Source: Ciconia boyciana (lineage: Eukaryota). From it: 64,000 nt of DNA. The position numbers were made by a program, and so were the translations under genes. Location of the stretch: assembly GCF_034638445.1 (NCBI RefSeq), contig NC_132969.1, positions 319,423-383,422 on the forward strand, read 5' to 3'. Shown in pieces: positions 35,041 through 58,607 of the stretch. How positions within the stretch are numbered: the stretch's first letter is position 1; each line of letters opens with the position of its first letter. The notes under the pieces are model-generated. The model did not search any database and was not told where the DNA came from. It saw only the letters and a list, made by a program, of their open reading frames with translations.

Positions 35041-35164
35041 TGCCCAAGAACCTACCAGGGCCCATCCAGGGCCACGTCCCCTCCTCAAGAGAAGCAGAGT
35101 TATGGGGTGGTGAGTTTTGGGGGACCCCCACCTCATCCCCACCCCACCCCTCTTCATCCCCCAG

Positions 35165-35347
35165 CTCCGATTGGACGAGACGCAAGAGGCGGAGTACCAG
35201 GTGCTGCGCTTGCAGCTGCAGCAGGAGCTGGAGCTCCTCAACGCCTACCAGAGCAAGATCAAGATGCACACGGAGGCCCAGCAGGAACGGGAGCTCAAGG
35301 ACCTGGAGCAACGCGTCTCCATCCGCCGCGCCCTCCTCGAGCAGCGG
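35165..35347 (+). CDS. TAOK2: TAOK2 coding exon 17
   Basis: Acceptor tcatcccccAG, donor GTACGG. Translation [61 protein letters not shown]. The exon is 183 nt. Confidence 0.9.
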
Positions 35348-35349
35348 GT

Positions 35350-38300: not shown

Positions 38301-39300
38301 TTCCGGCCTCCCCAGAGGGATTTCGGGGTTCTTCACAAGGATTTTGGGAGTTTCAGGGCTCCCCAGAGGGATTTTGGGGCTCTTCAAGTAGGATTTGGGG
38401 GTTTGGGGGCTCCCCAAAGGCATTTGGGAGTTTCAGGGCTCCCCAGAGGGATTTTGGGGTTCTTCAAGCAGCATTTGGGGGTTTCCGGCCTTCCCAGAGG
38501 GATTTTGGGGTTCTTCACAAGGATTTTGGGAGTTTCAGGGCTCCCTGTAGGGGTTTTTGGGGCTCCTCAAAGGGATTTGGGAGTTTCAGGGCTCCCCAGA
38601 GGGATTTTGGGGTTCTTCAGAAGGATTTTGGGAGTTTCGGGGCTCCCCAGAGGGATTTTGGGGTTCTTCAAGCAGCATTTGGGGTTTCGGGGCCCCCCAG
38701 AGCGATTTTGGGGTTCTTCAGAAGGATTTTGGGAGTTTTGGGGCTCCCCAGAGGGATTTCGGGGTTCTTCACAAGGATTTTGGGAGTTTCAGGGCTCCCC
38801 AGAGGGATTTTGGGGCTCTTCAGAAGGATTTTGGGAGTTTCGGGGCTCCCCAGGGGTATTTTGGGGTTCTTCAAGCAGGATTTGGGGGTTTCGGGGCTCC
38901 CCAGAGGGATTTTGGGGTTCTTCAGGAGGATTTTGGGAGTTTCGGGGCTCCCCAGAGGGATTTTGGGGTTCTTCAAGCAGCATTTGGGGGTTTCAGGGCT
39001 CCCCAAAGGGATTTGGGAGTTTCAGGGCTCCCCAGAGGGATTTTGGGGTTCTTCAGGAGGATTTTGGGAGTTTCGGGGCTCCCCAGAGGGATTTTGGGGT
39101 TCTTCAGGAGGATTTTGGGAGTTTCGGGGCTCCCCAGAGGGATTTTGGGGTTCTTCAGAAGGATTTTGGGAGTTTCGGGGCTCCCCAGAGGGATTTTGGG
39201 GTTCTTCAAGCAGCATTTGGGGGTTTCCGGCCTCCCCAGGGCGATTTTGGGGTTCTTCAAGCAGCATCTGGGGGTTTCCAGGCCTCCCCGTGCGCCTTTC
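35350..39300. repeat. Minisatellite family of about 21/60 bp (ggggctccccaagggggattatggaggtttc; gggattttggggttcttcagaaggattttgggagtttcggggctccccaga), TAOK2 intron 17
   Basis: 4 kb of direct repetition. It explains the 828-aa, 665-aa and similar plus-strand ORFs. Confidence 0.85.
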
Positions 39301-39408
39301 GGTGGTTTCCAGCCCCCCCATCCCCCCTCATTCCCCCTCCCCTGGGCGGGGGAGGGGAGGGGGAGGGGGGGGGTGGCGTCACCCCGCTTTTTGGGGTTCA
39401 CCCCGCAG

Positions 39409-39813
39409 ATCGAGGAGGAGATGCTGGCGCTGCAGGCGGAACGTTCCGAGCGCATCCGGGGGCTGCTGGAACGCCACGCCCGCGAGATCGAGGCCTTCGA
39501 CGCCGAGAGCCTGCGCCTGGGCTTCAGCGGGATGGCTTTGGGGGGGCTGCCCCCCCCCGCCCCTCCCCCGCTGCCCCGCCCCTCCCGCCCCGTCCCCCGC
39601 AGCGGCTCCCATTGGACCCACGGCCCCCCCGACGCTCGCCGACAGCCCCCGCTCCTCGCCCCGCCCCCCTCTTTCGGCGGGGTCCTCCCAACCGGCGGGG
39701 GCGCCCTCCCCCCCCGCGATAGCCCCCAACCCCCGCGGAGGGGAGGGGGGGGAGGGGGAGTAGAGGGGGCGGCCCCCCACCTCCTCAATGGAGCCCATTT
39801 CCCCTATTCCTGA
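39409..39813 (+). CDS. TAOK2: TAOK2 coding exon 18 (terminal, with stop)
   Basis: Acceptor caccccgcAG. Translation [46 protein letters not shown]...[12 protein letters not shown]...[13 protein letters not shown] followed by TGA at 39811-39813. Compare the human end ...HILNGSSHFYS. Summed exon lengths give a 999-aa product in a consistent frame across all 18 exons. Confidence 0.9.
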
Positions 39814-40195
39814 AAGATTGGGGGGGGGGGGGTCTTGAAACCGACATTTGGGGTTTTTCGGGGGGGCCTGAAACCGCCGCTTGGGGAGGGGAGGGGGCCC
39901 CGAAACTGCCCCTCGGATGGGGGGTGGGGGACCCCGAAACCGCCATTTGGGGTCATTTTGGGGGAGGGGGCTTGAAACCGACGCTGGGGGTGGGGTGGGG
40001 GTGGGGGGGGCTTGAAACCGCCCCTTGGGCTCATCATGGGGGGCCCCCAACCCGCCGCAGCGCCAAGCCCCGCCCCCCCGGCGCCAAGCCCCGCCCTCCG
40101 TGCCAAGCCCCGCCCCCCAGTGCCAAGCCCCGCCTCCCCAGCCCGTTTTTTTAACGGGGGGGGGGAGGGGATAATTAACGAGATGTAACGAGAAT

Positions 40196-40201
40196 AATAA
40201 A
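40196..40201 (+). other. TAOK2: AATAAA polyadenylation signal, probable TAOK2 3-prime end
   Basis: aataAATAAAtgagg lies about 380 nt downstream of the TAOK2 stop. It is the only canonical hexamer between the TAOK2 stop and the CDIPT promoter. Confidence 0.55.
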
Positions 40202-40204
40202 TGA

Positions 40205-40647
40205 GGATGGTGATGACGTCACTGGCTCCGCCCACTTTGCGACGCGCCGAGGGGAGGGGAGGGGCCAGGAGGCCGAGGGGCGGGGCAGGAGGGCGTTAAT
40301 GAGGGGGGCTCATTAAGGGGTCGGGGAGGCCTGGGGGTGGGCGGGGTTAAATTACCTGCGTCATTAATTATTCATGCGGTTAATTATTAATTAACCGCCC
40401 CGTTGTCACGGCAACCGCGGGTGGGGGGGGGTGAGGCCTACTCGGGGTGGCCGCGGGGGATGCCGGGAAGCGCCGCCATGTTTGGAGTGGGCGGGTCCGC
40501 GCGTCGCTGATTGGTAGCGGCGGGGAGAGGAGGGGGCGGGCGCGGGGTCGTGCGCCTGCGCGGGGAGGTGCCGCTTCCTGTATCCCGTGGCCCCGGCCGG
40601 TCTTAAAGGAGCCGCGGCGGCTTTTGGGGGCCCGGGGGTGCGGGGCG
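40205..40647 (+). promoter_or_regulatory. CDIPT: CDIPT promoter / 5-prime UTR CpG island
   Basis: A perfect CRE TGACGTCA sits at 40214-40221 and GC boxes at ggctccgccc (40224-40233) and gaggggcggggc (about 40275). An inverted repeat TTAATGAG(gggggg)CTCATTAA lies at 40296-40316 and a TAATTA/TTAATTAA cluster at 40360-40396. The sequence is GC-rich up to the CDIPT ATG at 40648. Confidence 0.55.
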
Positions 40648-40693
40648 ATGGCGGGCGGCGAGAACGTCTTCCTCTTCGTGCCCAACCTCATCG
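40648..40693 (+). CDS. CDIPT: CDIPT coding exon 1
   Basis: Context ggcgATGg. Translation MAGGENVFLFVPNLI(G); compare human MPDENIFLFVPNLIG. Donor GTGAGG. Confidence 0.9.
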
Positions 40694-40694
40694 G

Positions 40695-41290
40695 TGAGGG
40701 ACTGGGAGGGACTGGGGGATACTGGGAGGGACTGGGAGGGGACTGGGGGATACTGGGAGGGACTGGGGGGACTGGGAGGGGACTGGGGGTCACTGGGAAG
40801 GGCAGGGGGGCGGTTTTGGGGGCTCTGGGGGGTTTGGGGTGGTGGGGGGGACTGGGAGGGGACTGGGGGACTGGGGGATACTGGGAGGGATTGGGGGATA
40901 CTGGGAGGGACTGGGAGGGACTGGGGGTCACTGGGAAGGGCGGGGGGCGGTTTTGGGGGCTCTGGGGGGTTTGGGGTGGTGGGGGGACTGGGAGGGGACT
41001 GGGAGGGACTGGGGGATACTGGGAGGGACTGGGAGGGATTGGGGGATACTGGGAGGGACTGGGAGGGGACTGGGGGTCACTGGGAGGGACTGGGGGACTG
41101 GGAAGGGCAGGGGGCGTTTTGGGGGGGGATTTGGGGGGTTGGGGTGATGGGGGGACTGGGGGATACTGGGAGGGACTGGGAGGGGACTGGGGTTACTGGG
41201 AGGGGACTGGGGGTCACTGGGAGGCACTGGGGGATACTGGGAGGCACTGGGGAGGACTGGGAGGGACTGGGGGGCGATGGTGGACAGGGG
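40695..41290. repeat. About 21-bp repeat (gggactgggaggggactgggggatactgggag), CDIPT intron 1 part 1
   Basis: Direct repetition. Related to the arrays at 44420-45170 and 59800-61780 (the actggga family). Confidence 0.8.
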
Positions 41291-42060
41291 TGCGGCGGGG
41301 GTAATGGGGCTATACTGGGCCGTACTGGGCCATACTGGGAATGGCACCGGGGGCGTGTATTGGGGTCTCTAGGGGTTCGGGGGTGCTGGGCCATACTGGG
41401 CCTTACTGGGCCATACTGGGCCATACTGGGAATGGCACCGGGGCGTGTATTGGGGTCTCTAGGAGTTCGGGGGGTGCTGGGCCATACTGGGCCATACTGG
41501 GAATGGCACCGGGGGCATGTATTGGGGTCTTTGGGGGGTCAGGGGGCGCTGGGCCTTACTGGGCCTTACTGGGCCATACTGGGCATGGCAGTGAGGGCGT
41601 GTGTTGGGGTCTCTGGGGGGTCAGGGGCGCTGAGCCATACTGGGCCTTACTGGGCCATACTGGGCCATACTGGGAATGGCACCGGGGGTGTGTATTGGGG
41701 TCTCTGGGGGTTCAGGGGGGCGCTGGGCCATACTGGGCCTTACTGGGCCATACTGGGCATGGCAGTGAGGGCGTGTGTTGGGGTCTCTGGGGGTCAGGGG
41801 CGCTGAGCCATACTGGGCCTTACTGGGCCATACTGGGCCATACTGGGAATGGCACCGGGGGCGTGTGTTGGGGTCTCTGGGGGTTCGGGGGGGTGCTGGG
41901 CCTTACTGGGCCTTACTGGGCCATACTGGACATGGCACCGAGGGCATCTGTTGGGGTCTCTGGGGGGTCGGGGGGCGCTGGGCCTTACTGGGCCATACTG
42001 GGCCATACTGGGCATGGCAGCGAGGGCGTGTGTTGGGGTCTGCGGGGGGGGCGGGGGTGC
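41290..42060. repeat. Higher-order repeat of about 175 bp built from ccatactgggccttactggg / aatggcaccgggggcgtgtattggggtctctgggggttcgggg
   Basis: The recurring aatggcaccggggg motif and identical ORF translations. Confidence 0.8.
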
Positions 42061-42084
42061 CCCGGGGCTTTGGGTGACCCCCAG

Positions 42085-42219
42085 GCTACGCCCGCCTGGC
42101 GCTGGCCGCTGTCTCCTTCTACCTGATGCCGCGGCAGCCGGGGCCGGCGGCCGCCTGCTACGCCCTGAGCGGGCTGATGGACGCCGTCGACGGGCACGTG
42201 GCCCGGCTGCTGGGCCAGG
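42085..42219 (+). CDS. CDIPT: CDIPT coding exon 2
   Basis: Acceptor gacccccAG, donor GTGGGC. Translation (G)YARLALAAVSFYLMPRQPGPAAACYALSGLMDAVDGHVARLLGQ(G); compare human YARIVFAIISFYFMP...LSGLLDAFDGHAARALNQG. Confidence 0.9.
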
Positions 42220-42224
42220 GTGGG

Positions 42225-43050
42225 CGGGGCCGGGGGCGGGGCCTCGGCAGGGCGGGGCTTGGCAGGGTGGGGCCCCGGGGAGGGGGGTGGGGGTATAGGG
42301 GTGGGGAAGGGGAGCAGGGGCTTGGAGAGGGGTGGGGCTTGGGGAGGGGTGGGGCTTAGGAAGGAGGCGGGGCCCAGGTGCATATGGGGGTGGGGTTAGG
42401 GGAGGGCGTTGCAGCTCTGGGGGCGGGGCTTGGCAGGGTGGGGCCCGGGGGAGGGGGGTGGGGGTATAGGGGTGGGGAAGGGGAGGGGTGGGGCTTGGGA
42501 GGGGTGGGGCTTAGGAAGGAGGCGGGGCCCAGGTGCATATGGGGGTGGGGATAGGGGAGGTGTGGTGTGAGTCTGGGGGCAGGGCTTGGGGAGGGGCGGA
42601 GCTGAAGGGCGGAGCTTGGGGAGGGGCAGGGCCCGGGGCATGTGGGGACGGGGGGTGTGGTGGTGCAGCTTGAAGGGCGGGGCTTGTGAGGGTGGGGCTT
42701 GGCAGGGGCGGGGCTTGGGGAGGGGTGGGGCTTGGGGAGGGGCGGGGTCCGGGGCGATGATGTATGGGGGAGGGAAGGGGATAGGCGATGTCTGGGGGCG
42801 GGGCTTGGGGCGTGGTCACAGAGAGGGGGCGGAGCTCCAACTTCCTCCCCATGGAAGAGGCGGGGCCCACCCCCAAGTCCCCACCCGCAGTGGGCGTGGC
42901 TGACCCTTAGCCCCGCCCCTCGGCCGGGCGCCGCGCTGGACATTGCCCCATGGCGGGAGCGGGGGGGGGGGGTGTCCTGCCCCATAGCGGCTCCCTGCCC
43001 CGCCCCCGGTGGTCCCGCCCCCCCGTGGGCGTGGCTGAGCCTTGTCCCCG
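42225..43050. repeat. G-rich repeat (ggggcttggggaggggtgggg; about 155-bp higher-order unit), CDIPT intron 2
   Basis: aggaggcggggcccaggtgcatatgggggtgggg recurs at about 42361 and 42519. Confidence 0.75.
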
Positions 43051-43057
43051 CCCCCAG

Positions 43058-43211
43058 GCTCGCGGCTGGGCGCCATGCTGGACATGCTGACGGACCGGCT
43101 CTCCACCATGTGCCTCCTGCTCAACCTGGCCCTGCTCTACCCCGCCGCCGCCCCCCTCTTCCAGCTCAGCATGGCCCTCGACGTGGCCAGCCATTGGCTG
43201 CACATGCACTG
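43058..43211 (+). CDS. CDIPT: CDIPT coding exon 3 (CDP-alcohol phosphatidyltransferase motif region)
   Basis: Acceptor cgcccccAG, donor GTGGGC. Translation (G)SRLGAMLDMLTDRLSTMCLLLNLALLYPAAAPLFQLSMALDVASHWLHMH; compare human TRFGAMLDMLTDRCSTMCLLVNLALLYPGATLFFQISMSLDVASHWLHLH. Confidence 0.9.
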
Positions 43212-43214
43212 GTG

Positions 43215-44170
43215 GGCGGGGCTTGCGGGGGCGGGGCGTGCTGGGGGGCGGGGCCTCGGCGGGGTAAGGGGGGGCTGGGATCAGGGGCTGCCCTGGGGGG
43301 GGTGTGTGTGTCTGGGCGAGGGGCGGGGCTTGATGGGGAGGGGCGGGGCTTGGGGAGGGGGCGGGGCTTGGGGACCCTGGGATATGGGGGGCTGCACTGG
43401 AAGGAAAGGGAGGGGGCGTGGTCTGGGGAGGGGGCGGGGTTTGGGAGGGGCGGGGCTTGGGGACCCTGGGATATGGGGGGCTGCACTGAAAGGAAAGGGG
43501 GGCGTGGTCTGGGGAGGGGCGGGGTTTGGGGAGGGGGCGGGGCTTGGGGACCCTGGGATATGGGGGGCTGCACTGAAAGGAAAGGGTGGGGGCGTGGTCT
43601 GGGTGAGGGGGCGGGGCTTGATGGGGAGGGGCGGGGCTTGGGGACCCTGGGATATGGGGGGCTGCACTGAAAGGAAGGGGGCGTGGTCTGGGCGAGGGGG
43701 CGGGGCTTGTAGAGGGGGCGGGGCTTGGGGACCCTGGGATATGGAGTGGTCTGGGCGAGGGGCGTGGTCTGGTCTCAGGGTGTGGTCTGGGCGAGGGGCG
43801 GGGCCTGGGGTAAAGGCGGGGCTTGGGGATGGGGTGGGGCTTGGGAAGGGGAGGAGCCTGGGGTAGGGTGTGCAGTGGGGGTGGAGCTTATCCTCGGAGG
43901 CGTGGCCTTATCCTCGGGGTGGGGCCTTATCCTGGGGGCGGAGTGTTATACTTGGGGCGGGGTCTTATCCTGGGGGCGGGACCTTACCCTTGGAGGTGTG
44001 GCCTTATCCTCGGGGGCAGGGCCTTATCCTCGGGGGCGGGGCCAGCTGTCTATACCTTGGGGGGGGTGATGTGTGTTTCTCCCCTCCTCCCCCGGGTGGG
44101 GCGTGGCCGTGGGTGGGGCCGGTGGCGGGGGTGTGGCCGCGTGGGCGTGTCCTCGCCTGACCCCGCCCCC
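43215..44170. repeat. About 105-bp repeat x5 (ggggaccctgggatatggggggctgcactgaaaggaaaggg) followed by a 16-bp repeat x8 (gccttatcctcggggg), CDIPT intron 3
   Basis: Direct repetition. Confidence 0.8.
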
Positions 44171-44178
44171 TCCGGCAG

Positions 44179-44260
44179 CACCACCCTGCAGGGAGGGGAG
44201 AGCCACAAGGCGGTGGGGGGGGAGGTGCACCCCCTCCTGCGGCTGTACTACGGCTCCAGG
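44179..44260 (+). CDS. CDIPT: CDIPT coding exon 4
   Basis: Acceptor ctccggcAG, donor GTGAGT. Translation (C)TTLQGGESHKAVGGEVHPLLRLYYGSR; compare human SSVVRGSESHKMIDLSGNPVLRIYYTSR. Confidence 0.85.
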
Positions 44261-44337
44261 GTGAGTGGGGAGGGGAGGGGGTGGGGGTGGGGGAGGGGGT
44301 GACCTCCCGCCCCCCCTTGACCCGCCCTCCCCCCCAG

Positions 44338-44419
44338 CCCCTCCTGTTCCTGCTCTGCGCCGGCAACGAGGGGTTTTACTGCTGCCTCTACCTGCTGCAC
44401 TTCGGGGAGGGGCCGCCCG
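44338..44419 (+). CDS. CDIPT: CDIPT coding exon 5
   Basis: Acceptor ctcccccccAG, donor GTGAGG. Translation PLLFLLCAGNEGFYCCLYLLHFGEGPP; compare human PALFTLCAGNELFYCLLYLFHFSEGPL. Confidence 0.9.
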
Positions 44420-45170
44420 GTGAGGGACTGGGGGGACTGGGACGGACTGGGAGGGGACTGGAGGGACTGGGAGGGGACTGAGGGGACTGGGGGGACTGGG
44501 GGGACTGGGAGGGAACTGGGGGTACTGGGGGGCTGGGAGGGAACTGGGGGGCTGGGAGGGGAACTGGGGGGACTGGGAGGGGACTGGGAGGGGAACTGGG
44601 GGGACTGGGAGGGGAACTGGGGGGACTGGGAGGGGCTGGGAGGGGCGGGGAGGGGAACTGGGGGACTGGGAGGGAACTGGGGAGGACTAGGGAGGGACTG
44701 GAGGGGAACTGGGGGGGACTGGGAGGGACTGGGAGGGACTGGGGGGACTGGGAGGGACTGGGGAGGGACTAGGGGTCACTGGGAGGGGACTGGGAGGGAG
44801 TGGGAGGAACTGGGAGGGATTTGGGGGGAACTGGGGGGCACCGGGTGGATCCGGGGTTGATTGCGATGGGGTGGGGGGGAACTGGGAGGGGACTGGGGGT
44901 CACTGGGGGGAAACTGGGAGGGACTGGGGGAACTGGGAGGGGAACTGGGGGGACTGGGAGGGGAACTGGGGGGGACTGGGAGGGGCTGGGAGGGGACTAG
45001 GGGTCACTGGGAGGGGACTGGGAGGGACTGGCGGGAACTGGGAGGGATTTGGGGGGAACTGGGGGCACCGGGTGGATCCGGGGTCGATTGCGACGGGCGG
45101 GGGGGAACTGGGGGCACTGGGGGGCACCGGTTGGAACTGGGAGAGACTGGGAGATAGCGGGGCGGGGGAG
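44420..45170. repeat. About 21-bp repeat (gggactgggaggggaactgggg), CDIPT intron 5
   Basis: Direct repetition filling the whole intron. Confidence 0.85.
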
Positions 45171-45200
45171 GGAGGTGCTGAGCCCTCCCTCCCCCCCCAG

Positions 45201-45352
45201 TGCTGCCGGGGGGGCCGGGGCTGTTCCGGGCCGGGCTCTGGCTGGGGACCCCCCTGGCCGCGCTCAAGGGGGGGCTGAACCTGCTGCAGCTGGGGGGGGC
45301 CGCCCGCCGCCTGGCCGCCATCGACGCCGCCCAGCGCCCCAAAAGCAGCTGA
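45201..45352 (+). CDS. CDIPT: CDIPT coding exon 6 (terminal, with stop)
   Basis: Acceptor cccccccAG. Translation (V)LPGGPGLFRAGLWLGTPLAALKGGLNLLQLGGAARRLAAIDAAQRPKSS followed by TGA at 45350-45352. The six exons sum to 651 nt, giving 216 aa (human CDIPT is 213 aa). Confidence 0.9.
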
Positions 45353-45387
45353 GGCCCCGCCCCTCCCCCACCCCCCCACTGCACCCC

Positions 45388-45393
45388 AATAAA
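45388..45393 (+). other. CDIPT: AATAAA polyadenylation signal of CDIPT
   Basis: ccccAATAAAccggg lies 36 nt after the CDIPT stop. Confidence 0.6.
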
Positions 45394-45449
45394 CCGGGCT
45401 GCTGCCCAGCCCCCCCTCTCTCCGCCCTCCCCCCCCCAAACCCCCCGTG

Positions 45450-46450
45450 CTTTGAGTGTTCAGGGGTGGGAGGGGGGGGAGGGGCAGCGCCGGAAGGGGG
45501 AGGGGAAAGCACTTGGGGAGGGGAAAGCTCTTGGGGGAGGGGCAGCGCCGAAAGGGGGAGGGGCGGCACTCGGGGGGGGAAGGGGAAAGCTCTTGGGGAG
45601 AGGGGAAAGCTCTTGGGGGAGGGGCACCGCCAAAAGGGGGAGGGGCGGCACTCGGGGGGAGGGAAAGCTCTTGGGGGGAGGGGCACCGCCAAAAGGGGGA
45701 GGGGCAACCACTTGGGGAGGGGAAAGCTCTTGGGGAGAGGGGCAGCGCCGAAAGGGGGAGGGGCGGCACTCGGGGGGAGGGGCAACCACTTGGGGGAGGG
45801 GAAAGCTCTTGGGGAAGGAGCGGCACTCGGGGGAGGGGCACCGCCTGGGGAGGGGAAACCCTTGGGGAGGGGCAATCCGTTCGGGGAGGGGCAACGCCTT
45901 CGGAAAGGGGACACCCCAAAATGGGGGAGGGGCAACTCTGGGGGAGGAAACTCCTTGGGGAGGGGCAGCGCCTTCGGAGATGGGACACCCACAAAATGGG
46001 GAGGGGCAACGCCTTGGGGAGGGAAAATCTTGGGGAGGGGCAACACGTTGGGGGAGGGGCACCCCCAAAATGGGGAGGGGCAACGCCTTGGGGAGGGGCA
46101 CCCCTTTGGGGAGGGGCAGCGCCTTCGGAGATGGGACACCCACAAAATGGGGAGGGGCAACCCCTTGGTGGGAGGGGCAACGCCGTGGGGAGGGAAAATC
46201 TTGGGGAAGGGGCAACCTCTTGGGGAGGGGCAGCACGTTGGGGGAGGGCAAGCCCTTGGGGGAGGGGCAGCGTCTTCGGAGATGGGACACCCACAACATG
46301 GGGAGGGGCAACCCCTTGGTGGGAGGGGCAACGCGTTGGGGGAGGGGCACCCCAAAATGGGGAGGGGCAACGCCTGTGGGGGAGGGGCAACGCCTTGGGG
46401 GAGGAGGGGTTGTGTGGGGGCAGGGGGGCCAGGGATCCCTCCCCCCCCCA
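45450..46450. repeat. About 40-bp repeat (ggaggggcaacgccttggggaggg / ggagatgggacacccacaaaatgg) downstream of CDIPT
   Basis: Direct repetition in the CDIPT-PRRT2 convergent intergenic region. Confidence 0.8.
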
Positions 46451-47200
46451 ATTTTGGGGCTCCCCAGCAGTTGCGGGGGGAGGGGTCCCCAAATGGACTC
46501 CCCTAGAGGGGAGGGGCCCTGAAAGGGGGAGGGGCCGAGGGGGTGTGACGCTGGAGGGGAGGGGATCCCTCCCCCCAAATTTGGGGGCTCCTCTCCATGC
46601 AGCAGCCTTTATTGCCATGCGCCGATACAAACCAGGGACCCCCCAAAACACCCCCTCCCCCACCCCCAAAATCTTCCCCACCCCCACCCCATTTGACCCC
46701 CCAAATTTTCGGGGGGACCCCAACCCCCACCCCCTTTTCAAGCACACCCCCCCAGCGTGCGACAGGGTCCCCTCCCCCCACAAAAACCGTGCAAAAATCC
46801 CGGGGGGACACCCCCAAATTTCGGGGGGACCCCCCCAAATTTAAAGGGGCCCCCCAAATGAGGGGACCCCCCAAAACAGGGCCGCCCCCTCCCCCAATAA
46901 CAGTCAGGGTGGGGGTGGGGGTGAATTGGGGAGGGGCGGTAAAGTGGGGGCCACACCCCCCCAAATTTTGGGGGTTCAGGCAGGCAGAGGGGGCCCCCAT
47001 TTCAGGACAGACGGACGGGGGGGTCCCCCAAAATTGGGGGAGGGGCAGGTGGATGTTGCCCCTCCCCCTTTTTGTTTCGGGGGGTCCCCCAATTTTGGGG
47101 GTGCAGGCTGACGTCACCCCCCTTTTTTTGGTCGGAAGGGGGTCCCCCGATTTTGGGGTGCAGCGGGCGTGGGGCCCCCCGGCTCCAGGACGGACGGACG
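46450..47200. repeat. Short-unit repeat (ggggtccccccaaattttgg family)
   Basis: Alternating C-run/G-run/T-run units, the same family as 26100-27360. Confidence 0.7.
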
Positions 47201-49090
47201 GACGGCGGGGGAGGGGGTCCTCACTGAAAAACTGGGGGGGAGGGAAGGTCAGGTTGGGGGAGGGGCAGGGATTTGGGGGTCCCCGATGTTTGGGGGGCCC
47301 CACGGGGGTGGGGGGGGTACCTGGGGGGAGGGGTTTTGGGGTCCCATAGGGGATTTGGGGGCCCCAGGGATTGGGGGGGTCGGGGGGCAGGGGGGTTGGG
47401 GGGCCCCAGGGGGGTTGGGGTCCCATGGGGGGTTGGGGGGGGCAGGGATTGGGGAGGGGCAGGGGCTTTTAGGGGCCCAGGGGGTTTGGGGGTCCCCGAT
47501 GTTGTGGGGGGTGGGGGTGGTTTGGGGGGTGGGGGATGGGGGCTTTGGGGGGGTGGGGGAGGTTTGGGGGGTTGTTTGCGGGGGTGTTTTGGGGGCTGTT
47601 TTGGGGGGCGTTTGGGGGGTGGGGGTGTTTGGGGGTGGGGGTGTTTTGGGGGGCTGTTTTGGGGGTTCAGGGGGTTTGGGGGTGGGGGTGTTTTTGGGGG
47701 CTGTTTTGGGGGTTCGGGGGTTTGGGGGGTGGGGGTGTTTTGGGGGTGGGGGTGTTTTGGGGGGCTGTTTTGGGGGGTCTGGGGTTTTGGGGGTTTTGGG
47801 GGTGGGGGCTGTTTTGGGGGCTGTTTTGGGGGTCCTGGGGGGTTGGGGGGTGTTTTGGGGGTTGGGGGGATGTTTGCGGGGCGTTTGGGGGTGTGGGGGT
47901 GTTTTTGGGGGGCTGTTTTGGGGGTTCGGGGTTTGGGGGGTGGGGGTGTTTTGGGGGTGGGGGTGTTTTTGGGGGGCTCTTTTGGGGGGGTCTGGGGTTT
48001 GGGGGTTCTGGGGGGTTGGGGGGTGTTTTTGGGGGCTGTTTTGGGGGGTTCTGGGGTTTGGGGGGTTTGGGGGGGTGTTTGGGGGTGGGGGGTGTTTTTA
48101 GGGGGCTGGTTTGGGGGTTCTGGGGTTTTGGGGGGTGGGGGTGTTTTGGGGAGCTGGTTTGGGGGTTCAGGGGGTTGGGGGGTGGGGGCTGTTTGGGGGA
48201 GCTATTTTGGGGGTTCTGGGGGGTTGGGGAGTGTTTTGGGGGTTCGGGGGTTTTGGGGGGTTTGCGGGGGTGGGGGTGTTTTGGGGGTGGGGGGTGTTTT
48301 GGGGGCTGGTTTGGGGTTCTGGGGGAGTTAGGGGGTGGTTGGGGGTGTTTTTGGGGGGCTGTTTTGGGGGGTCTGGGGTTTTGGGGGTTTTGGGGGGTGG
48401 TGGCTGTTTTGGGGGGCTGTTTTGGGGGTCCTGGGGGTTGGGGGGTGTTTTGGGGGGTTGGGGGATGTTTGCGGGGGCGTTTGGGGGGTGGGGGTGTTTT
48501 TGGGGGGCTGTTTTGGGGGTTCGCGGGGTTGGGGGTTTGGGGGGTGGGGGTGTTTTGGGGGTGGGGGTGTTGGGGGGCTGTTTTGGGGGTTCTGGGGTTT
48601 GGGGGGTGGGGGTGTTTTGGGGGCTGGTTTGGGGGTTCTGGGGGGTTGGGGGTTTGGGGGGTGGGGTGTTTTGGGGGGCTATTTTGGGGGTTCTGGGGTT
48701 TGGGGGTGTTTTGGGGGTGGGGGTGTTTTTGGGGGGCTGTTTTGGGGAGTGTTTTTGGGGGTTTGGGGTTTGGGGGTGGAGGTGTTTGGGGTGGGGGGGT
48801 GTTTTGGGGCTGGTTTGGGGTTCTGGGGTTTTGGGGGTGGGGTGTTTTGGGGGGCTGGTTTGGGGGTTCGGGGGGTTGGGGGTTTGGGGGTGGGGGTGTT
48901 TTGGGGGCTATTTTGGGGGTTCTGGGGGTTGGGGGGTGTTTGGGGGGCTGTTTTTGGGGGTTCAGGGGGTTTGGGGGTTGGGGGGTGGGGGTGTTTGGGG
49001 GTGGGGGTGTTTTGGGGGCTGGTTTGGGGGTTGGGGGGTGTTTGGGGGCTGTTTTGGGGGTTCTGGGGGTGGGGGTGGGGGTGGTTTCGG
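47200..49090. repeat. G/T-rich minisatellite (gggggtgttttgggggctgttttgggggttctgggg)
   Basis: 1.9 kb of direct repetition abutting the PRRT2 donor at 49108. It is C/A-rich on the PRRT2 sense strand. Confidence 0.85.
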
Positions 49091-49108
49091 GGGGTGGGGC
49101 GCACTCAC

Positions 49109-49241
49109 CGCCGAAGTTGATGGCGCAGGAGGCGGCGAGGAGCAGGGCCCCCCCCAGCAGGGCCACCCCCGCCAGCAGCTTGGCCACGCGGCCCAGGCGC
49201 CGGGCGCCCTCCACGTCCCCCTGCTGCCGGCTGTGCCGCGG
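49109..49241 (-). CDS. PRRT2: PRRT2 coding exon (second dispanin/CD225 transmembrane helix)
   Basis: Minus-strand acceptor tccggcAG and donor GTGAGT (plus-strand gcactcac at 49101-49108). Translation [44 protein letters not shown](G). Compare human PRRT2 [44 protein letters not shown]. The exon ends in phase 1, so a short terminal coding exon (human VYK-stop) should lie downstream but could not be placed inside the C/A-rich repeats. Confidence 0.75.
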
Positions 49242-49244
49242 CTG

Positions 49245-50300
49245 CCGGACCCACGGCTGACCCACGGCTGCCCCACGGCTGCCCCCCGGCGCCCCACGGC
49301 CGCCCCACGGCCGCCCACACCCAAGCCGTGGCCCAGCCCCGGTGGGTCTCCCAGCCGGCCCGGGCTGACCCACGGCTCGCCCGCGGGCGCTGCCCCATAG
49401 CTGCCCCACGGATACCCCGCGCTGACCCGTAGCTGCCCCACGGACACCCCATGCTGACCCATAGCTGACCCACGGACACCCCACGGCTGCCCCACGGACA
49501 CCACGTGCTGACCCATGGCTGCCCCACGGACACCCCATGCTGACCCATAGCTGCCCCACGGACACCCCACGGCTGCCCCACGGACACCACGTGCTGACCC
49601 ATGGCTGCCCCACGGACACCCCATGCTGACCCATAGCTGACCCACGGACACCCCACGGCTGCCCCACGGACACTCCACGCTGCCCCATGGCTGCCCCACA
49701 GCCACCTTGCACTGACCCACAGCCAACCTACACTGACCCATAGCTGCCCCAGACACCCCACGCTGACCCACGGACATCCCATGCTGCCGTATAGCTGCCC
49801 CACGGCTGCCTCACAGCAGCTGCCCCACAGCTGCCCCACAGCCACCCTGCACTGACCCACAGCCAACCTACACTGACCCACAGCTGCCCCACGGCCATCC
49901 CACACTGACCCACGGCAGCTGCCCCACGGACACCCCATGCTGACCCATAGCTGCCCCATGGACACCCCACGCTGACCCACAGCTGCCCCACAGACACCCC
50001 ATGCTGACCCATAGCTGCCCCACAGACATCCCACACTGACCCGTAGCTGCCCCACAGCTGCCCTATGGCTAACCTATGCTGACCCACAGCTGCCCACGGC
50101 CATCCCACACTGACCCACGGCAGCTGCCCCACGGACACCCCACGCTGACCCATAGCTACCCCACGGCTGCCCCACAGCCATCCCATGCTCACCCACAGCT
50201 GCCGACCCACGGCAGCTGCCCCACGGCAACCAACCCACAGCTGCCCCACTGCTCACCCACGGTTGCCCCACAGCCACCCCACACTGACCCATAGCTGCCC
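49245..50300. repeat. About 32-bp minisatellite (ctgccccacggacaccccatgctgacccatag), PRRT2 intron
   Basis: Direct repetition starting directly at the PRRT2 exon acceptor. Confidence 0.85.
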
Positions 50301-52800
50301 CACGGCCACCCCATGGCCAACCCACGGCTGACCCACAGCCACAGCGTGCCCCACACTGCACCCCATTGCGGCATGCGCTGTGCCCCATTTTACCCCCCGC
50401 TGTGCCCCATTGCACCCCACACCCTACCCATTATCCCACCCTCTGCCCCATAGCCTGCCCCACAGCCCACCCCATAGCCCCATAGCACCCCACGCCACAC
50501 CCCATTGCACCCCAGCACCCGCCCCATTGCACCCCGCACCTTGCCCCACAGCCCCCCACCCTCTGCCCCATTGTGTCATGCACTGCGCCCCATTGCACCC
50601 CCATTACCCCCACACTCTGCCCCACAGCCCGCCCCACAGCCTGCCCCAGAGCCCCATAGCACCACACCCCATTGCAGCCCAGCGCCCGCCCACAGCCCCC
50701 CACCCTCTGCCTGATAGCATCCCCTGCCCCATAGCTCCGCCCCATAGCCTGCCCCATAGCACCACACGCCATTGCTCCCCACCCTCTACCCCATAGCCCC
50801 CCCATTACCCCCCTTCTGCCCCACAGCCTGCTGCACATCCCGCCCCACATCCTGCCCCATGGCAACCCTCTCCCTGACCCATTACACCCCCACCCTGTGC
50901 TCCACTTCCCCATTCCCCCCACCCTCTGCCCCATAGCCCGCCGCCCCATTCCCCCTTCCGCCCCACATCCCACCCCACACCCTGCCCCACATCCCGCCCC
51001 ATAGCACCCCTCTCCCTACCCCATTCCCCCACCCTGCACCCCATTCCCCCATTCCCCTCATATCCCCCCCATTCGCCCCCTTCCGCCCACATCCCCCACG
51101 TCCCACCCCACACCCCGTCCCACGCCCACCCCACATCCCACCCCACATCCCGCCCCATAGCACCCCCTCCCTACCCCATTCCCCGCCCACCCTGCACCCC
51201 ATTCCTCCCCATATCCCCCCCATTCCCCCCTTCCACCCCACATCCCCCCCACGTCCCACCCCACACCCTGCCCCACAGCACCCCCTCCCTACCCCATTCC
51301 CCCCCACCCTGCACCCCATTCCCCCCCATATCCCCCCATTCCCCTCTTCCGCCCCACATCCCCCCCACATCCCACCCCACACCCCCCATGCCCCACCCCA
51401 CATCCCACCCCACATCCCGCCCCATAGCACCCTCCCTACCCCATTCCCCCCCCACCCTGCACCCCTTTCCCCCCATATCCCCCCCCATTCCCCCCTTCCA
51501 CCCCACATCCCCCCACGTCCCACCCCACACCCTGCCCCACACCCCACCCCACATCCCACCCCACATCCCGCCCCATAGCACCTCCCTCCCTACCCCATTC
51601 CCCACCCACCCTGCACCCCATTCCCCCCTTCCCCCCATATCCCCCCATTCCCCCTTCCGCCCCACATCCCCCCACATCCCGCCCCACACCCTGCCCCACA
51701 TCCCGCCCCATAGCACCCCCTCCCTACCCCATTCTCTGCCCACCCTGCACCCCATTCCCCCTTCCCCCCCATATCCCCCCCATTCCCCCCCACATCCCCC
51801 CCCACGTCCCGCCCCACACCCTGCCCCACACCCTGCCCCACATCCCGCCCCATAGCACCCCCTCCCTACCCCATTCCCCGCCCACCCTGCACCCCATTCC
51901 CCCCTTCCCCCCATATCCCCCCCATTCCCCCCACATCCCCCCCCCACGTCCCGCCCCACACCCTGCCCCACACCCTGCCCCACATCCCGCCCCATAGCAC
52001 CCCCCTCCCTACCCCATTCCCCGCCCACCCTGCACCCCATTCCCCCCTTCCCCCCATATCCCCCCCATTCCCCCCCACATCCCCCCCACGTCCTGCCCCA
52101 CACCCTGCCCCACACCCTGCCCCACATCCCGCCCCATAGCACCCCCTCCCTACCCCATTCCCCGCCCACCCTGCACCCCATTCCCCCTTCCCCCCATATC
52201 CCCCCCATCTCCCCTCACATCCCCCCCACGTCCCGCCCCACACCCTGCCCCACATCCCGCCCCATAGCACCCCCTCTCCCTACCCCATTCCCCCCACCCT
52301 GCACCCCATTCCCTTCCTCCCCCCATATCCCCTCCTTCCGCCCCACATCCCTCCCCACGTCCCGCCCCACACCCTGCCCCACACCCTGCCCCACATCCCG
52401 CCCCATAGCACCCCTCCCTACCCCATTCCCGCCCACCCTGCACCCCATTCCCCCTTCCCCCATATCCCCCATTCCCCTCACATCCCCCCCCACGTCCCGC
52501 CCCACACCCTGCCCCACATCCCGCCCCATAGCACCCCTCCCTACCCCATTCCCCCCACCCTGCACCCCATTCCCCCCTTCCCCTCATATCCCCTTCCGCC
52601 CCCACATCCCTCCCCACGTCCCGCCCCACACCCTGCCCCACACCCTGCCCCACATCCCGCCCCATAGCACCCCCCCCTCCCTACCCCATTCCCCGCCCAC
52701 CCTGCACCTCATTCCCCTTCCCCTCATATCCCCCATTCCCCTCACATCCCCCCTCACGTCCCGCCCCACACCCTGCTCCCACACCCTGCCCCACATCCTC
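50300..52800. repeat. C-rich higher-order repeat of about 140 bp (ccccacatcccgccccatagcaccccctccctaccccattccccgcccaccctgcaccccattcccc...), PRRT2 intron
   Basis: catagcaccc recurs at about 140-bp intervals from 51400 to 52700. The array ends at the PRRT2 GTGAGG donor (52802). Confidence 0.85.
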
Positions 52801-52802
52801 AC

Positions 52803-53566
52803 CATCAGGGCGTAGACGAAGGCCACGATGTTGATGGGCCAGACGGGGCAGAAGCAGGCCAGCGCCGCCAGCAGGACGTAGCTCGGTGGCTTCGCCCCCC
52901 CTGGGGACCCCCCCGGGGGTGACCCCTCCCCTCAGTGCCCCCCCCGCCCCCCCATTTTCTTGGGGACCCCCCTCCACTGGCACCGTCACCGGGGGGGGCT
53001 GGGGGGCGGTTGGGGGCTGGGGGGGTGGGGTGGGGGCTGGGGGTCCTGGGGGCTGCTGGGGGCTGGGGGGGGCTTGGGGGCACTTGGGGGCTGGGGGGCT
53101 TGGGGGGCTGGGGGTCCTGGGGAGGTTGGGGGCTGGGGGGTGGGGTGGGGGGGGGGGTCCTGGGGGCGGGTGGGGCTGGGGGGGTTGGGGGGTCTTGGGG
53201 GCAGAGGGGGGTCTTTAGGGTCGGGGAGGGGCTGGGGCTTCCTGGGGCAGTTGGGGGCTGGGGGGTTGGGGTCCTGGGGGTGGTTGGGGGCTGGGGGGCG
53301 GTGGGGGATCTCTGGGGCCCTGGGGTCCTGGGGGCTGCTGGGGGCTGGGGGGCTGGGGGTCTTGGGGGGCAGAGGGGGTCCCCAAGATTCTGGGGCTCCT
53401 GGGGGGCTGGGGGCTGGGGGGCTGGGGGAGGGTCCTCGGGGTGGCGGGGGTGGGGGTGGGGCTGGGGGCTCGGGGGGTTGGGGGTGGGGAGGGGCTTTTG
53501 GGGTGCCGGGGGTCCCGGGGGAGTCGCCGGGGGTTCGGTCTCGGCCGTCCTGGGGGTCTCCGCCAT
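52803..53566 (-). CDS. PRRT2: PRRT2 large 5-prime coding exon (Pro-rich N-terminus and first transmembrane helix), with frame disruptions
   Basis: Minus-strand Kozak ccaccATGg with ATG at 53566-53564. It is preceded by acceptor cccctcccccAG (exon starts at about 53593). The exon ends with ...[32 protein letters not shown] followed by a GTGAGG donor (plus-strand cctcac at 52797-52802). Compare human ...[30 protein letters not shown]. The ATG frame reads [36 protein letters not shown].... The transmembrane helix is in a different frame. The exon is 764 nt, not a multiple of 3, so at least two frame changes occur in G/C homopolymer tracts around 52880-52990. Confidence 0.6.
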
Positions 53567-53727
53567 GGTGGGGAGGGGAGAGGGGGTTCAGGGCTGGGGG
53601 AGGGGCGTGGGGTGAGGGGGGGGGGGAAGCCAGGGGTCTGGCCCCCCCCTCCCCCAAGAGAGGTTCCCATCCCCCACCTGCAGCCCCCGGGGGAGGGGCG
53701 GGGGAGGTGGGGAGGGGGGGTCTTTAC

Positions 53728-56429: not shown

Positions 56430-56677
56430 TCAGAGCCTCCGGATCTTCATCTCGCTCTTCTTGAGGGAGTAGTAGAAGCCCTTCCACTGGGCCCAGTTGA
56501 TGCCGTTGGCGTAGGAGAGGTGGGCGCCCCCCAGGTAGAAGCCGTTGAGGTTGGAGAAGTGGCAGCTCTTGAACCACCAGGCGCCGGAGGAGAGGGCGGC
56601 GCAGTTCTGGACGTAAAGGTCCTGGTCCCGGTCGAAGGTGGAGAATTTTTGACCGTTGTGGTAGCTGAGGGAATCGC
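56430..56677 (-). CDS. FReD (ficolin/angiopoietin-like fibrinogen C-terminal domain) gene, terminal coding exon
   Basis: Minus-strand acceptor ctccAG. Translation (G)[81 protein letters not shown] followed by TGA (plus-strand tca at 56430-56432). Compare ficolin [20 protein letters not shown]...[26 protein letters not shown]...[26 protein letters not shown]. Confidence 0.8.
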
Positions 56678-56689
56678 CTGGAGGATGGG

Positions 56690-57800
56690 GGAGGAGGAGA
56701 TGGGGGGCACGCGGGGCTTGCGGTGGCCTGGTGGCCCTCCATCGTGGCCTCCGTTGGCCTGGTGGCCCTCCCCATGGTTCACATTGGCTTGGTGGACCCC
56801 CATCGTGGCCTCCGTTGGCCTGGTGGCCCCTCCCCATGGGTGATGTTGGCCTGGTGGCCCCTCCCAATGCCCCACAGTGACCTGGTGGCCCTCCATCATG
56901 GCCTCTGTTGGCCTGGTGGCCCCTCCCCATGGCCCACGTTGGCCTGGTGGCCCCCCATCGTGGCCTCCGTTGGCCTGGTGGCCCCTCCCCATGGGTGATG
57001 TTGGCCTGGTGGCCCTCCATCATGGCCTCTGTTGGCCTGGTGGCCCCTCCCCATGGTTCACAATGGCCTGGTGGCCCCCCATCATGGCTTCCATTGGCCT
57101 GGTGGCCCCTCCCCATGTTTGATGTTGGCCTGGTGGCCCCTCCCCATGGCCCACAGGGACCTGGTGGCCCTCCATCATGGCCTCCGTTGGCTTGGTCTCC
57201 CCTCCCCATGGTTGATGTTGGCCTGGTGGCCCTCCATCATGGCTTCCGTTGGCCTGGTGGCCCTCCCCATGGCTCACATTGGCTTGGTGGCCCCCCATCG
57301 TGGCCTCCGTTGGCTTGGTGTCCCCTCCCCATGGCCCACATTGGCTTGGTGGCCCCCCATCGTGGCCTCCGTTGGCTTGGTGTCCCCTCCCCATGGCCCA
57401 CGTTGGCCTGGTGGCCCTCCATCATGGCTTCCGTTGGCCTGGTGGCCCCTCCCCATGGTTGATGTTGGCCTGGTGGCCCCCCATCGTGGCCTCCGTTGGC
57501 TTGGTGGCCCCTCCCCATGGCCCATGTTGGCCTGGTGGCCCTCCATCATGGCCTCCGTTGGCCTGGTGGCCCTCCCCATGGTTGAGGTTGGCCTGGTGAC
57601 CCTCCATCATGGCCTCCGTTGGCTTGGTGTCCCCTCCCCATGGCCCACGTTGGCCTGGTGGCCCTCCATCATGGCTTCCGTTGGCCTGGTGGCCCCTCCC
57701 CATGGTTGATGTTGGCCTGGTGGCCCTCCATCATGGCTTCCGTTGGCCTGGTGGCCCCTCCCCATGACCCACGGTGACCTCGTGTCCCCTCCCCATGCCC
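56690..57800. repeat. Minisatellite (ggcctccgttggcctggtggcccctccccatggttcacattggcttggtggccccccatcgtgg), first part of the FReD last intron
   Basis: Direct repetition. The minus-strand translation is GPPGQ-containing but is not a Gly-X-Y collagen repeat. Confidence 0.85.
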
Positions 57801-58500: not shown

Positions 58501-58607
58501 CTCCCCTTCCCCTCACCCCGGCCTGCATTCCCCCCTCCCCTCCCCTCGCCCTCCCCGCCGCGGGGCCGCCGTGGGGCGGCCGTGGGGCGCCCCCCAAGCG
58601 TCCTCAC

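What the first reader, a model, noticed from the sequence alone, without database searches (positions are those of the whole stretch)
39813..53600. Collapsed and rearranged 16p11.2 block: TAOK2 stop to CDIPT ATG is 0.8 kb; MVP, PAGR1, SEZ6L2, ASPHD1, KCTD13 and TMEM219 are absent
In human the order is PRRT2(+) PAGR1 MVP CDIPT(-) SEZ6L2 ASPHD1 KCTD13 TMEM219 TAOK2(+), spanning about 180 kb. Here TAOK2(+) is followed after 835 bp by CDIPT(+). PRRT2(-) lies convergent about 3.7 kb beyond the CDIPT polyA site. The convergent CDIPT/PRRT2 arrangement is kept, but the two intervening human genes are missing. TAOK2 is inverted relative to CDIPT compared with human, and four genes are missing between them. 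Either these genes were lost or relocated in this lineage, or they reside elsewhere on the same small chromosome.
Basis: partly seen in the sequence, partly recalled or inferred. Interest (0 to 1): 0.5.

Follow-up and report, generated by a model that had tools for sequence, protein, structure and literature searches.

The report
Ancestral TAOK2–CDIPT–PRRT2 gene order in a bird
The tight TAOK2–CDIPT–PRRT2 arrangement in this bird sequence is real, but fish, frogs, turtles and other birds share it, so it is the old vertebrate gene order and the human 16p11.2 order is the rearranged one.

Summary
TAOK2(+) ends at 39813 and an intact six-exon CDIPT(+) starts at 40648, 834 bp later. PRRT2(-) is convergent downstream. 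No trace of MVP, PAGR1, SEZ6L2, ASPHD1, KCTD13 or TMEM219 is in the interval or the window.

One number is wrong. PRRT2 has an 11-nt terminal exon at 47231-47221, so the two stop codons are 1.87 kb apart, not 3.7 kb.

The interpretation has the evolutionary direction backwards. TAOK2(+)->CDIPT(+) is also found in bowfin, Xenopus, a sea turtle, emu and cormorant. CDIPT(+)->PRRT2(-) without MVP or PAGR1 is found in turtle, gecko and cormorant. In the turtle, TMEM219 lies just upstream of TAOK2. Echidna already has the human-like CDIPT/MVP pair. So this order predates tetrapods and mammals are the derived state. The six genes were never between these genes in this lineage.

Published work reports KCTD13 as lost in all birds, SEZ6L2 as kept in Neoaves, and MVP as present in chicken and turkey.

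What is bird-specific is compaction plus tandem-repeat-filled introns: 81% of the window is tandem repeat, the known signature of avian dot chromosomes. This is ordinary and of low interest.

The parts
2783..39813 (+). TAOK2 coding region, about 16 exon matches. The last exon is 39409-39813 and the stop is at 39811-39813. The last intron, 35348-39408, is 95% tandem repeat.
   Evidence: tblastn with recalled human TAOK2. Pfam Pkinase E=2.7e-64. Closer to TAO2 than TAO1. Repeat cover.
39814..40647 (.). TAOK2-CDIPT spacer of 834 bp. It holds the probable TAOK2 3'UTR with AATAAA at 40196-40201. Promoter-like sequence for CDIPT follows at once: TGACGTCA at 40214-40221, a GC box, and CpG observed/expected of about 1 from 40314.
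   Evidence: Sequence and CpG statistics. Six-frame Pfam scan gives 0 families. The promoter role is an inference.
40648..45352 (+). CDIPT: six coding exons, 216 aa, intact ORF, all introns GT/AG. AATAAA at 45388.
   Evidence: Gene model. Pfam CDP-OH_P_transf. 93% identical to Phalacrocorax carbo CDIPT.
45353..47220 (.). CDIPT-PRRT2 convergent spacer, 1868 bp between stop codons and 57% tandem repeat. It holds the 3'UTRs of both genes. The minus-strand poly(A) signal is at 46613.
   Evidence: Six-frame Pfam scan gives 0 families.
47221..53566 (-). PRRT2. Exons are 53566-52803 (Pro-rich N-terminus plus TM1), 49241-49109 (TM2) and 47231-47221 (VFQ plus stop). The MAETPR... ORF is out of frame with the TM1 segment across G-runs near 52895-52990.
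   Evidence: tblastn. Exon model and splice sites. Pfam CD225 E=1.2e-19. The mini-exon was found through cormorant L001.
56430..62090 (-). MFAP4-like fibrinogen-domain gene, the next gene beyond PRRT2. It lies outside the finding's interval but belongs to the conserved bird order.
   Evidence: ORFs. Pfam Fibrinogen_C E=5.7e-46. The best solved-structure match is MFAP4, 297 bits against 183 for FIBCD1. The same neighbour occurs in cormorant and emu.

Best explanation
The window carries the ancestral bony-vertebrate gene order ...TMEM219(+) TAOK2(+) CDIPT(+) PRRT2(-)..., here on a GC-rich, repeat-laden avian microchromosome. The genes are functional neighbours with very short spacers. The TAOK2 poly(A) signal lies about 450 bp before the CDIPT ATG, and CDIPT and PRRT2 terminate towards each other.

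The human order PRRT2-PAGR1-MVP-CDIPT-SEZ6L2-ASPHD1-KCTD13-TMEM219-TAOK2 is the derived state and arose on the mammalian stem. One inversion of the SEZ6L2..TAOK2 block, with a breakpoint in the TAOK2-CDIPT spacer, would reproduce the human CDIPT-to-TAOK2 order and all strands. PAGR1 and MVP must also have come to lie between PRRT2 and CDIPT. MVP was already next to CDIPT in monotremes.

Shown here: the gene models, and the shared order across fish, frog, reptiles and birds. Taken from the literature: KCTD13 is lost in birds. Inferred: the single-inversion path, and the position of SEZ6L2, ASPHD1 and TMEM219 in this species.
For: Gene models and identities.

Same order in independent public assemblies:
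- Cormorant L001: kinase(+), CDIPT(+), CD225(-), a fibrinogen-domain gene(-); colinear with the window by blastn.
- Emu L006: TAOK2(+), a 1195-bp gap, CDIPT(+), Fibrinogen_C(-).
- Hawksbill turtle L007: TMEM219(+), TAOK2(+), CDIPT(+).
- Green turtle L002: CDIPT(+), CD225(-) 3 kb downstream.
- Gecko L003: CDIPT(+), CD225(-).
- Xenopus laevis L004/L005: TAOK2(+), 5 kb, CDIPT(+).
- Bowfin L011: TAOK2(+), 4.6 kb, CDIPT(+), then MAZ(+).

Mammalian state: echidna L009 has CDIPT(+) convergent with MVP(-).

Fate of the 'missing' genes: KCTD13 is listed as missing in all birds, and SEZ6L2 as missing only in Galliformes and Anseriformes (PMC12954441 suppl. tables 2B/2D). No bird KCTD13 was among the best 120 hits. 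MVP sequences are known from chicken and turkey (PMC3762200).
Against: The human order and strands come from established annotation that I recalled, not from data fetched here. Only the echidna CDIPT/MVP pair was checked.

In echidna nothing identifiable was found within 10 kb upstream of CDIPT, so the date of the TAOK2 inversion within mammals is open.

The gecko locus shows no TAOK2 exon within 10 kb upstream of CDIPT. A zebra-shark TAO2-like gene is followed by a WD40 gene rather than CDIPT, but it cannot be assigned to TAO2 or TAO1.

The location of MVP and PAGR1 in non-mammals is unknown.

A 2019 transcript study lists contigs assigned to KCTD13 in birds (PMC6321700). This conflicts with the 2026 claim of loss.
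Confidence: 0.85

Rival explanations
1. Lineage-specific collapse: the ancestor of this bird had the human-like order. Deletions and an inversion then removed or relocated six genes and brought TAOK2, CDIPT and PRRT2 together.
For: The spacers are much shorter than in other vertebrates: 834 bp against 4.6-9.5 kb. Birds have lost some 16p11.2 genes such as KCTD13, DOC2A and CORO1A. A small reptile gene between TAOK2 and CDIPT is missing in birds.
Against: The same adjacency and orientation occur in bowfin, Xenopus, turtles, emu and cormorant. TMEM219 is upstream of TAOK2 in turtle, not between TAOK2 and CDIPT.
Confidence: 0.04
2. Assembly artefact: the contig is chimeric, or repeats were collapsed, so genes that really lie between TAOK2, CDIPT and PRRT2 were dropped.
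For: 81% of the window is tandem repeat. Two genes, PRRT2 and the MFAP4-like gene, show apparent frameshifts at G-runs, which suggests local sequence errors. The cormorant assembly of the same locus is clearly compressed and lacks the last TAOK2 exon.
Against: The window has no N. The two junction spacers contain unique sequence with poly(A) signals and promoter-like motifs. Three independent bird assemblies and the non-bird assemblies give the same order.
Confidence: 0.03
3. Paralogous region: the kinase is TAOK1 or TAOK3, or the block is an ohnologous copy. Comparison with human 16p11.2 would then be invalid.
For: TAOK family members are very similar in the kinase domain and the coiled coil. 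For the emu fragment and the shark gene, TAO2 and TAO1 scores are close.
Against: The whole-gene comparison favours TAO2, and the TAOK2-type C-terminal motif [15 protein letters not shown] is present. The neighbours are CDIPT and PRRT2, both 16p11.2 genes. The turtle has TMEM219 upstream, as in human.
Confidence: 0.02

Closest known systems
Human/mouse 16p11.2 BP4-BP5 gene block (KIF22-MAZ-PRRT2-PAGR1-MVP-CDIPT-SEZ6L2-ASPHD1-KCTD13-TMEM219-TAOK2-HIRIP3...)
   Same: Orthologous TAOK2, CDIPT and PRRT2. CDIPT and PRRT2 point towards each other in both. TMEM219 precedes TAOK2 on the same strand in turtle, as it does in human.
   Different: In mammals TAOK2 is on the opposite strand to CDIPT, with four genes in between, and PAGR1 and MVP lie between PRRT2 and CDIPT. 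Here the three genes are direct neighbours within 14 kb. The human order is taken from established annotation, which I recalled. Only echidna CDIPT/MVP was verified.
Annotated cormorant locus (Phalacrocorax carbo GCA_963921805.1, OY997631.1:693177-718762) and emu locus (GCA_036370855.1, CM072418.1:29598-53423)
   Same: Same genes, order and strands, including the MFAP4-like gene beyond PRRT2. Colinear with the window by blastn.
   Different: The cormorant assembly is compressed and lacks the last TAOK2 exon. In emu PRRT2 is not annotated and gives only a weak match, E=0.12.
Avian dot-chromosome genes with intronic 'sequence stuttering' (Hron et al. 2026, PMC12954441). That paper's supplementary tables assign the lost 16p11.2 genes KCTD13 and SEZ6L2 to chicken chr38.
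   Same: GC is 65% and 81% of the window is tandem repeat. Arrays are confined between exons and start within a few bases of splice sites. This matches the published description.
   Different: The paper describes chicken. This window comes from a Neoaves species close to cormorants. TAOK2, CDIPT and PRRT2 are not mentioned in that paper.

Membership tests
Conserved (ancestral) TAOK2-CDIPT-PRRT2 microsynteny | The three genes are the true orthologues | tested here: met
   TAO2 beats TAO1 in score and identity. CDIPT is 93% identical to cormorant CDIPT and 64% to turtle CDIPT. The CD225 domain gives PRRT2-type matches in turtle and cormorant.
Conserved (ancestral) TAOK2-CDIPT-PRRT2 microsynteny | Same order and strands in sister lineages and in outgroups to birds | tested here: met
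   Cormorant, emu, two turtles, gecko (CDIPT-PRRT2 only), Xenopus and bowfin (TAOK2-CDIPT).
Conserved (ancestral) TAOK2-CDIPT-PRRT2 microsynteny | The alternative (human) order is restricted to one derived clade | tested here: inconclusive
   Echidna has CDIPT convergent with MVP. The human order itself is recalled. Marsupials, coelacanth and lungfish could not be fetched (one search failed).
Lineage-specific gene loss or rearrangement in this bird | The arrangement differs from that of close relatives and outgroups | tested here: not met
   Identical arrangement in all the sauropsid, amphibian and fish loci fetched.
Lineage-specific gene loss or rearrangement in this bird | The 'missing' genes are absent from the genome of the lineage | tested here: inconclusive
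   KCTD13: no bird hit among the best 120, and reported lost in all birds, but bird transcript contigs were assigned to it in 2019. SEZ6L2 is reported as kept in Neoaves. MVP is known from chicken and turkey. A chicken transcript contig in the PMC6321700 supplement has bovine PAGR1 as its best protein match (68% over 63 aa), although the table labels it INO80E. TMEM219 and ASPHD1 in birds were not resolved. The source genome was not available.
Avian dot-chromosome 'stuttering' region | High GC, with introns dominated by local tandem arrays that abut exons | tested here: met
   GC is 64.8%. Tandem repeats cover 81% of the window and 82-96% of most introns. Arrays of GAGGGACTGG start 3 nt after the donors of CDIPT exons 1 and 5.
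Avian dot-chromosome 'stuttering' region | Location on a dot chromosome, and intron length that varies within the population | not testable with these tools
   The origin of the window is not given. The literature assigns the lost 16p11.2 genes KCTD13 and SEZ6L2 to chicken chr38.
Assembly chimera | Junctions unsupported by other assemblies, or gaps at the junctions | tested here: not met
   No N in the window. Colinear with the cormorant and emu loci.

The most novel reading that the evidence does not exclude
The core gene order of the human 16p11.2 autism/obesity CNV region is a mammalian novelty. One inversion with a breakpoint in the short TAOK2-CDIPT spacer flipped the SEZ6L2-ASPHD1-KCTD13-TMEM219-TAOK2 block, and PAGR1-MVP came to lie between PRRT2 and CDIPT, before monotremes split off. 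Non-mammalian models of the CNV would then have a different regulatory neighbourhood. Separately, birds may have deleted a small, uncharacterised reptile gene of about 300 aa that lies between TAOK2 and CDIPT in turtles and gecko.
Probability: 0.45. Interest if true: 0.3.

Novelty: already known. Interest (0 to 1): 0.1.

Why it matters
It matters mainly as a caution. A difference from the human gene map is not evidence of an event in the lineage being read, and the direction of change needs outgroups. Here the bird keeps the old order and mammals are the rearranged ones.

It also shows that claims of 'absent gene' on avian GC-rich microchromosomes need care. Some 16p11.2 genes are reported as truly lost in birds (KCTD13). 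Others are merely elsewhere or hard to assemble. This window itself shows apparent homopolymer frameshifts in two genes.

For people who use chicken, frog or fish to model the 16p11.2 CNV, the different neighbourhood of TAOK2, CDIPT and PRRT2 is a minor practical point.

Tried and rejected
1. Two of the twelve contig look-ups returned nothing: Mauremys KCTD13 and coelacanth CDIPT. I therefore have no turtle KCTD13 neighbourhood and no coelacanth locus.

2. The protein I hoped was a bird KCTD13 (P0279) lies on a contig whose assembly I recall as a shark genome. There it sits downstream of a kinase that gave no TAOK2 match, so it says nothing about birds.

3. The zebra-shark 'TAO2-like' locus cannot be assigned to TAO2 or TAO1. 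I did not use it for the direction of change.

4. The recalled human TMEM219 probe did not detect the turtle TMEM219 exon, and Pfam matches that probe only at residues 11-71. The negative tblastn result for TMEM219 in the window is therefore weak. Only the last exon of turtle TMEM219 was in reach, too short for a homologue search.

5. tblastx of the turtle TAOK2-CDIPT spacer gave mostly proline-rich noise. It also found a CR1-type reverse-transcriptase fragment, which probably inflates the annotated 292-aa 'gene'.

I scanned only the two intergenic gaps, with stops masked.

7. Phrase searches for the printed human gene order failed, and no paper describing this synteny was found.

8. I checked the lower-GC stretch at 12-16 kb inside TAOK2 for a nested gene or transposon ORF and found none.


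Full report
**What the window is.** The 64-kb window is 64.8% G+C and contains no N. Tandem repeats cover 81% of it. The CDIPT protein it encodes is 93% identical to that of the great cormorant. Identity falls to 76-88% in other birds listed, 64-66% in turtles and about 60-64% in mammals, frogs and fish. The source is therefore a bird close to cormorants that is not itself in the protein collection.

**The gene models.**
- TAOK2(+) runs from the ATG at 2783 to a stop at 39811-39813. Its kinase domain is confirmed by Pfam. The whole gene is closer to TAO2 than to TAO1: 71.5% against 60.5% identity and 1358 against 1130 summed bits.
- CDIPT(+) has six coding exons between 40648 and 45352. All introns are GT/AG, the ORF is an intact 216 aa, and AATAAA lies 36 nt after the stop. 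Pfam finds CDP-OH_P_transf.
- The TAOK2 stop to CDIPT ATG spacer is 834 nt. It contains AATAAA at 40196, followed at once by TGACGTCA, a GC box and CpG-rich sequence. I read this, by inference only, as the TAOK2 3' end abutting the CDIPT promoter.
- PRRT2(-) encodes its CD225 domain at 52883-52803 and 49241-49109.

**One correction to the observation.** The PRRT2 exon at 49241-49109 ends in a GT donor in phase 1, so a further exon must follow. The cormorant annotation ends at an acceptor followed by TG TTT CAG TGA. The window has the same element once, at 47236-47221, where 0.01 matches are expected by chance. It encodes VFQ plus the stop. The CDIPT and PRRT2 stop codons are therefore 1868 bp apart. 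A minus-strand poly(A) signal sits at 46613, about 1.2 kb from the CDIPT signal.

**Are the six human genes absent?** Within this window, yes, as far as these tests reach.
- Recalled human MVP, PAGR1, KCTD13, TMEM219 and ASPHD1 sequences give no tblastn hit in the window. The MVP probe hits the echidna MVP control.
- Apart from MVP, which was not scanned, these probes each match their own Pfam family, so they are usable. The TMEM219 probe matches only at residues 11-71 and missed a turtle TMEM219 exon, so that negative is weak.
- An HMM built from fetched KCTD13 orthologues finds the shark control and nothing in the window.
- Six-frame Pfam scans of both intergenic gaps return no family. SEZ6L2 was tested only in this way.
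- The introns are 82-96% tandem repeat, except the two shortest CDIPT introns.
- The flanks do not hold the genes either. Positions 1-2700 are a tandem array with a period of about 290 bp. Beyond PRRT2 lies an MFAP4-like gene on the minus strand.

**Is the arrangement peculiar to this lineage?** No. I fetched the DNA and called genes around CDIPT, TAOK2 and KCTD13 orthologues in other species.
- Cormorant: kinase(+), CDIPT(+), CD225(-), then the fibrinogen-domain gene(-). The locus is colinear with the window.
- Emu: TAOK2(+), 1195 bp, CDIPT(+), Fibrinogen_C(-).
- Hawksbill turtle: TMEM219(+), TAOK2(+), 9.5 kb, CDIPT(+).
- Green turtle: CDIPT(+), then PRRT2(-) 3 kb downstream.
- Gecko: CDIPT(+), then a CD225 gene(-).
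- Xenopus laevis, two assemblies: TAOK2(+), 5 kb, CDIPT(+).
- Bowfin: TAOK2(+), ending ...[15 protein letters not shown]...SNGSHLSYS, then 4.6 kb, CDIPT(+), then a MAZ-type zinc-finger gene(+).
- Echidna, by contrast, has CDIPT(+) convergent with MVP(-), which is the human pairing.

A ray-finned fish, a frog, reptiles and both major bird branches share the tail-to-head TAOK2-CDIPT pair. The parsimonious reading is that this order predates tetrapods and that mammals carry the derived order.

**How the human order could arise (inference).** Write the human block with CDIPT on the plus strand. This gives HIRIP3(+) TAOK2(-) TMEM219(-) KCTD13(+) ASPHD1(-) SEZ6L2(+) CDIPT(+) MVP(-) PAGR1(-) PRRT2(-). 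Inverting TAOK2..SEZ6L2 then gives ...TMEM219(+) TAOK2(+) CDIPT(+). That matches the turtle for every gene I could see. One inversion with a breakpoint in the TAOK2-CDIPT spacer, plus the arrival of PAGR1-MVP between CDIPT and PRRT2, would therefore suffice. The human order itself comes from established annotation that I recalled. The left half of the predicted ancestral order was not observed.

**What happened to the 'missing' genes in birds?**
- The KCTD13 search returned orthologues from mammals, turtles, lizards, tuatara, salamanders, coelacanth, lungfish, sturgeon and sharks. It returned no bird KCTD13, although bird KCTD10 and TNFAIP1 paralogues were listed.
- Hron et al. [quoted passage not shown] They list SEZ6L2 as missing in Galliformes and Anseriformes but not in Neoaves (PMC12954441).
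- An earlier transcript study lists contigs assigned to KCTD13. It also lists a chicken contig, labelled INO80E in the table, whose best protein match is bovine PAGR1 (PMC6321700). The KCTD13 loss is therefore reported rather than settled.
- MVP sequences from chicken and turkey were used in a published MVP phylogeny (PMC3762200).
- ASPHD1 has few sauropsid entries in one published table (PMC8449477). I could not interpret that further.
- The source genome was not available, so the status of TMEM219, ASPHD1, SEZ6L2, MVP and PAGR1 in this species remains untested.

**What is bird-specific.** The spacer between TAOK2 and CDIPT shrinks from 4.6-9.5 kb in bowfin, frog and turtle to 0.8-1.2 kb in birds. 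Almost every intron is filled with local tandem arrays that begin within a few bases of the splice sites. This matches the 'sequence stuttering' described for chicken dot chromosomes (PMC12954441). Without the repeats, the 13.8-kb interval would be under 4 kb.

**Rivals.**
- A chimeric or collapsed contig is unlikely. Independent assemblies agree and the junction spacers are unique sequence.
- A paralogous block is unlikely, given the TAO2 assignment and the CDIPT, PRRT2 and TMEM219 neighbours.
- A lineage-specific collapse is contradicted by the outgroups.

**Verdict.** The 'collapsed and rearranged' reading reverses the direction of evolution. The locus is an ordinary, conserved piece of vertebrate synteny on a repeat-rich avian microchromosome. 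The same order is already present in public annotations of other birds, turtles, frogs and fish. Interest is low.

Noticed in passing
window 40696-41271 and 44422-45065 (also 59841-61635): The same 10-mer array (GAGGGACTGG, about 58 and 63 copies) starts exactly 3 nt after the GT donors of CDIPT exon 1 (which ends at 40693) and exon 5 (which ends at 44419). A related ACTGGGGGAT array of 174 copies lies in the MFAP4-like gene. Overall 81% of the window is tandem repeat. This looks like the 'sequence stuttering' described for chicken dot chromosomes, here in a Neoaves species.
   Followed up: partly
window 47221-47236 (-): An 11-nt terminal coding exon of PRRT2 (AG|TT TTT CAG TGA, giving VFQ plus stop). 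It is conserved with the cormorant annotation and easy to miss. It halves the apparent CDIPT-PRRT2 distance.
   Followed up: yes
window 52895-52990 (-): The PRRT2 N-terminal ORF (MAETPR..., from 53566) is out of frame with the TM1-coding segment. The shift falls among several G-runs of about 7 or 8 bases. In cormorant the two parts are in one frame. It is either a homopolymer error in the assembly or a real frameshift.
   Followed up: partly
window 56430-62090 (-), frameshift near 62064-62069: An MFAP4-like gene is the conserved neighbour of PRRT2 in the window, cormorant and emu. Human MFAP4 is on chromosome 17 (recalled). The segments DCQDVYAGG and [10 protein letters not shown]... are in different frames across a G-run, whereas emu reads through in one frame. 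This is a second apparent frameshift in the window.
   Followed up: partly
L007 31806-31940; L002 7973-8098; L003 7347-7484: Turtles and a gecko have an annotated gene of about 300 aa, with no Pfam match, between TAOK2 and CDIPT. Its terminal exon is conserved (...CPSRQGGPGKFLSKAT...SDSNTDQSE...). No counterpart was found in the window, cormorant, emu, Xenopus, bowfin or echidna loci. Its identity is unknown. The turtle gene span also contains a CR1-type reverse-transcriptase fragment.
   Followed up: partly
window 40196-40260: The TAOK2 poly(A) signal (AATAAA, 40196) is followed within 20 nt by a palindromic CRE-like TGACGTCA (40214-40221) and a GC box. The CDIPT promoter seems to begin where TAOK2 ends.
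   Followed up: no
window 1-2700: The stretch upstream of the first TAOK2 coding exon is a tandem array with a period of about 290 bp. No TMEM219 exon or obvious promoter is visible, so the TAOK2 5' exon and promoter probably lie outside the window.
   Followed up: no
L006 13826-16018 (emu): PRRT2 is not annotated between CDIPT and the MFAP4-like gene in emu. tblastn gives only a weak TM1-like match at 14810-14854 (E=0.12). PRRT2 may be degraded, highly diverged or poorly assembled in emu.
   Followed up: no
L011 15801-20139 (bowfin): In bowfin a MAZ-type C2H2 zinc-finger gene follows CDIPT on the same strand, with no PRRT2 between them. The PRRT2/MAZ side of the block therefore also differs between fish and tetrapods.
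   Followed up: no
L001 1-10000 (cormorant): The cormorant assembly holds TAOK2 in a much shorter span than the window does. It contains a 200-N gap, and the last TAOK2 exon was not detectable. This shows how poorly the locus assembles in birds.
   Followed up: no
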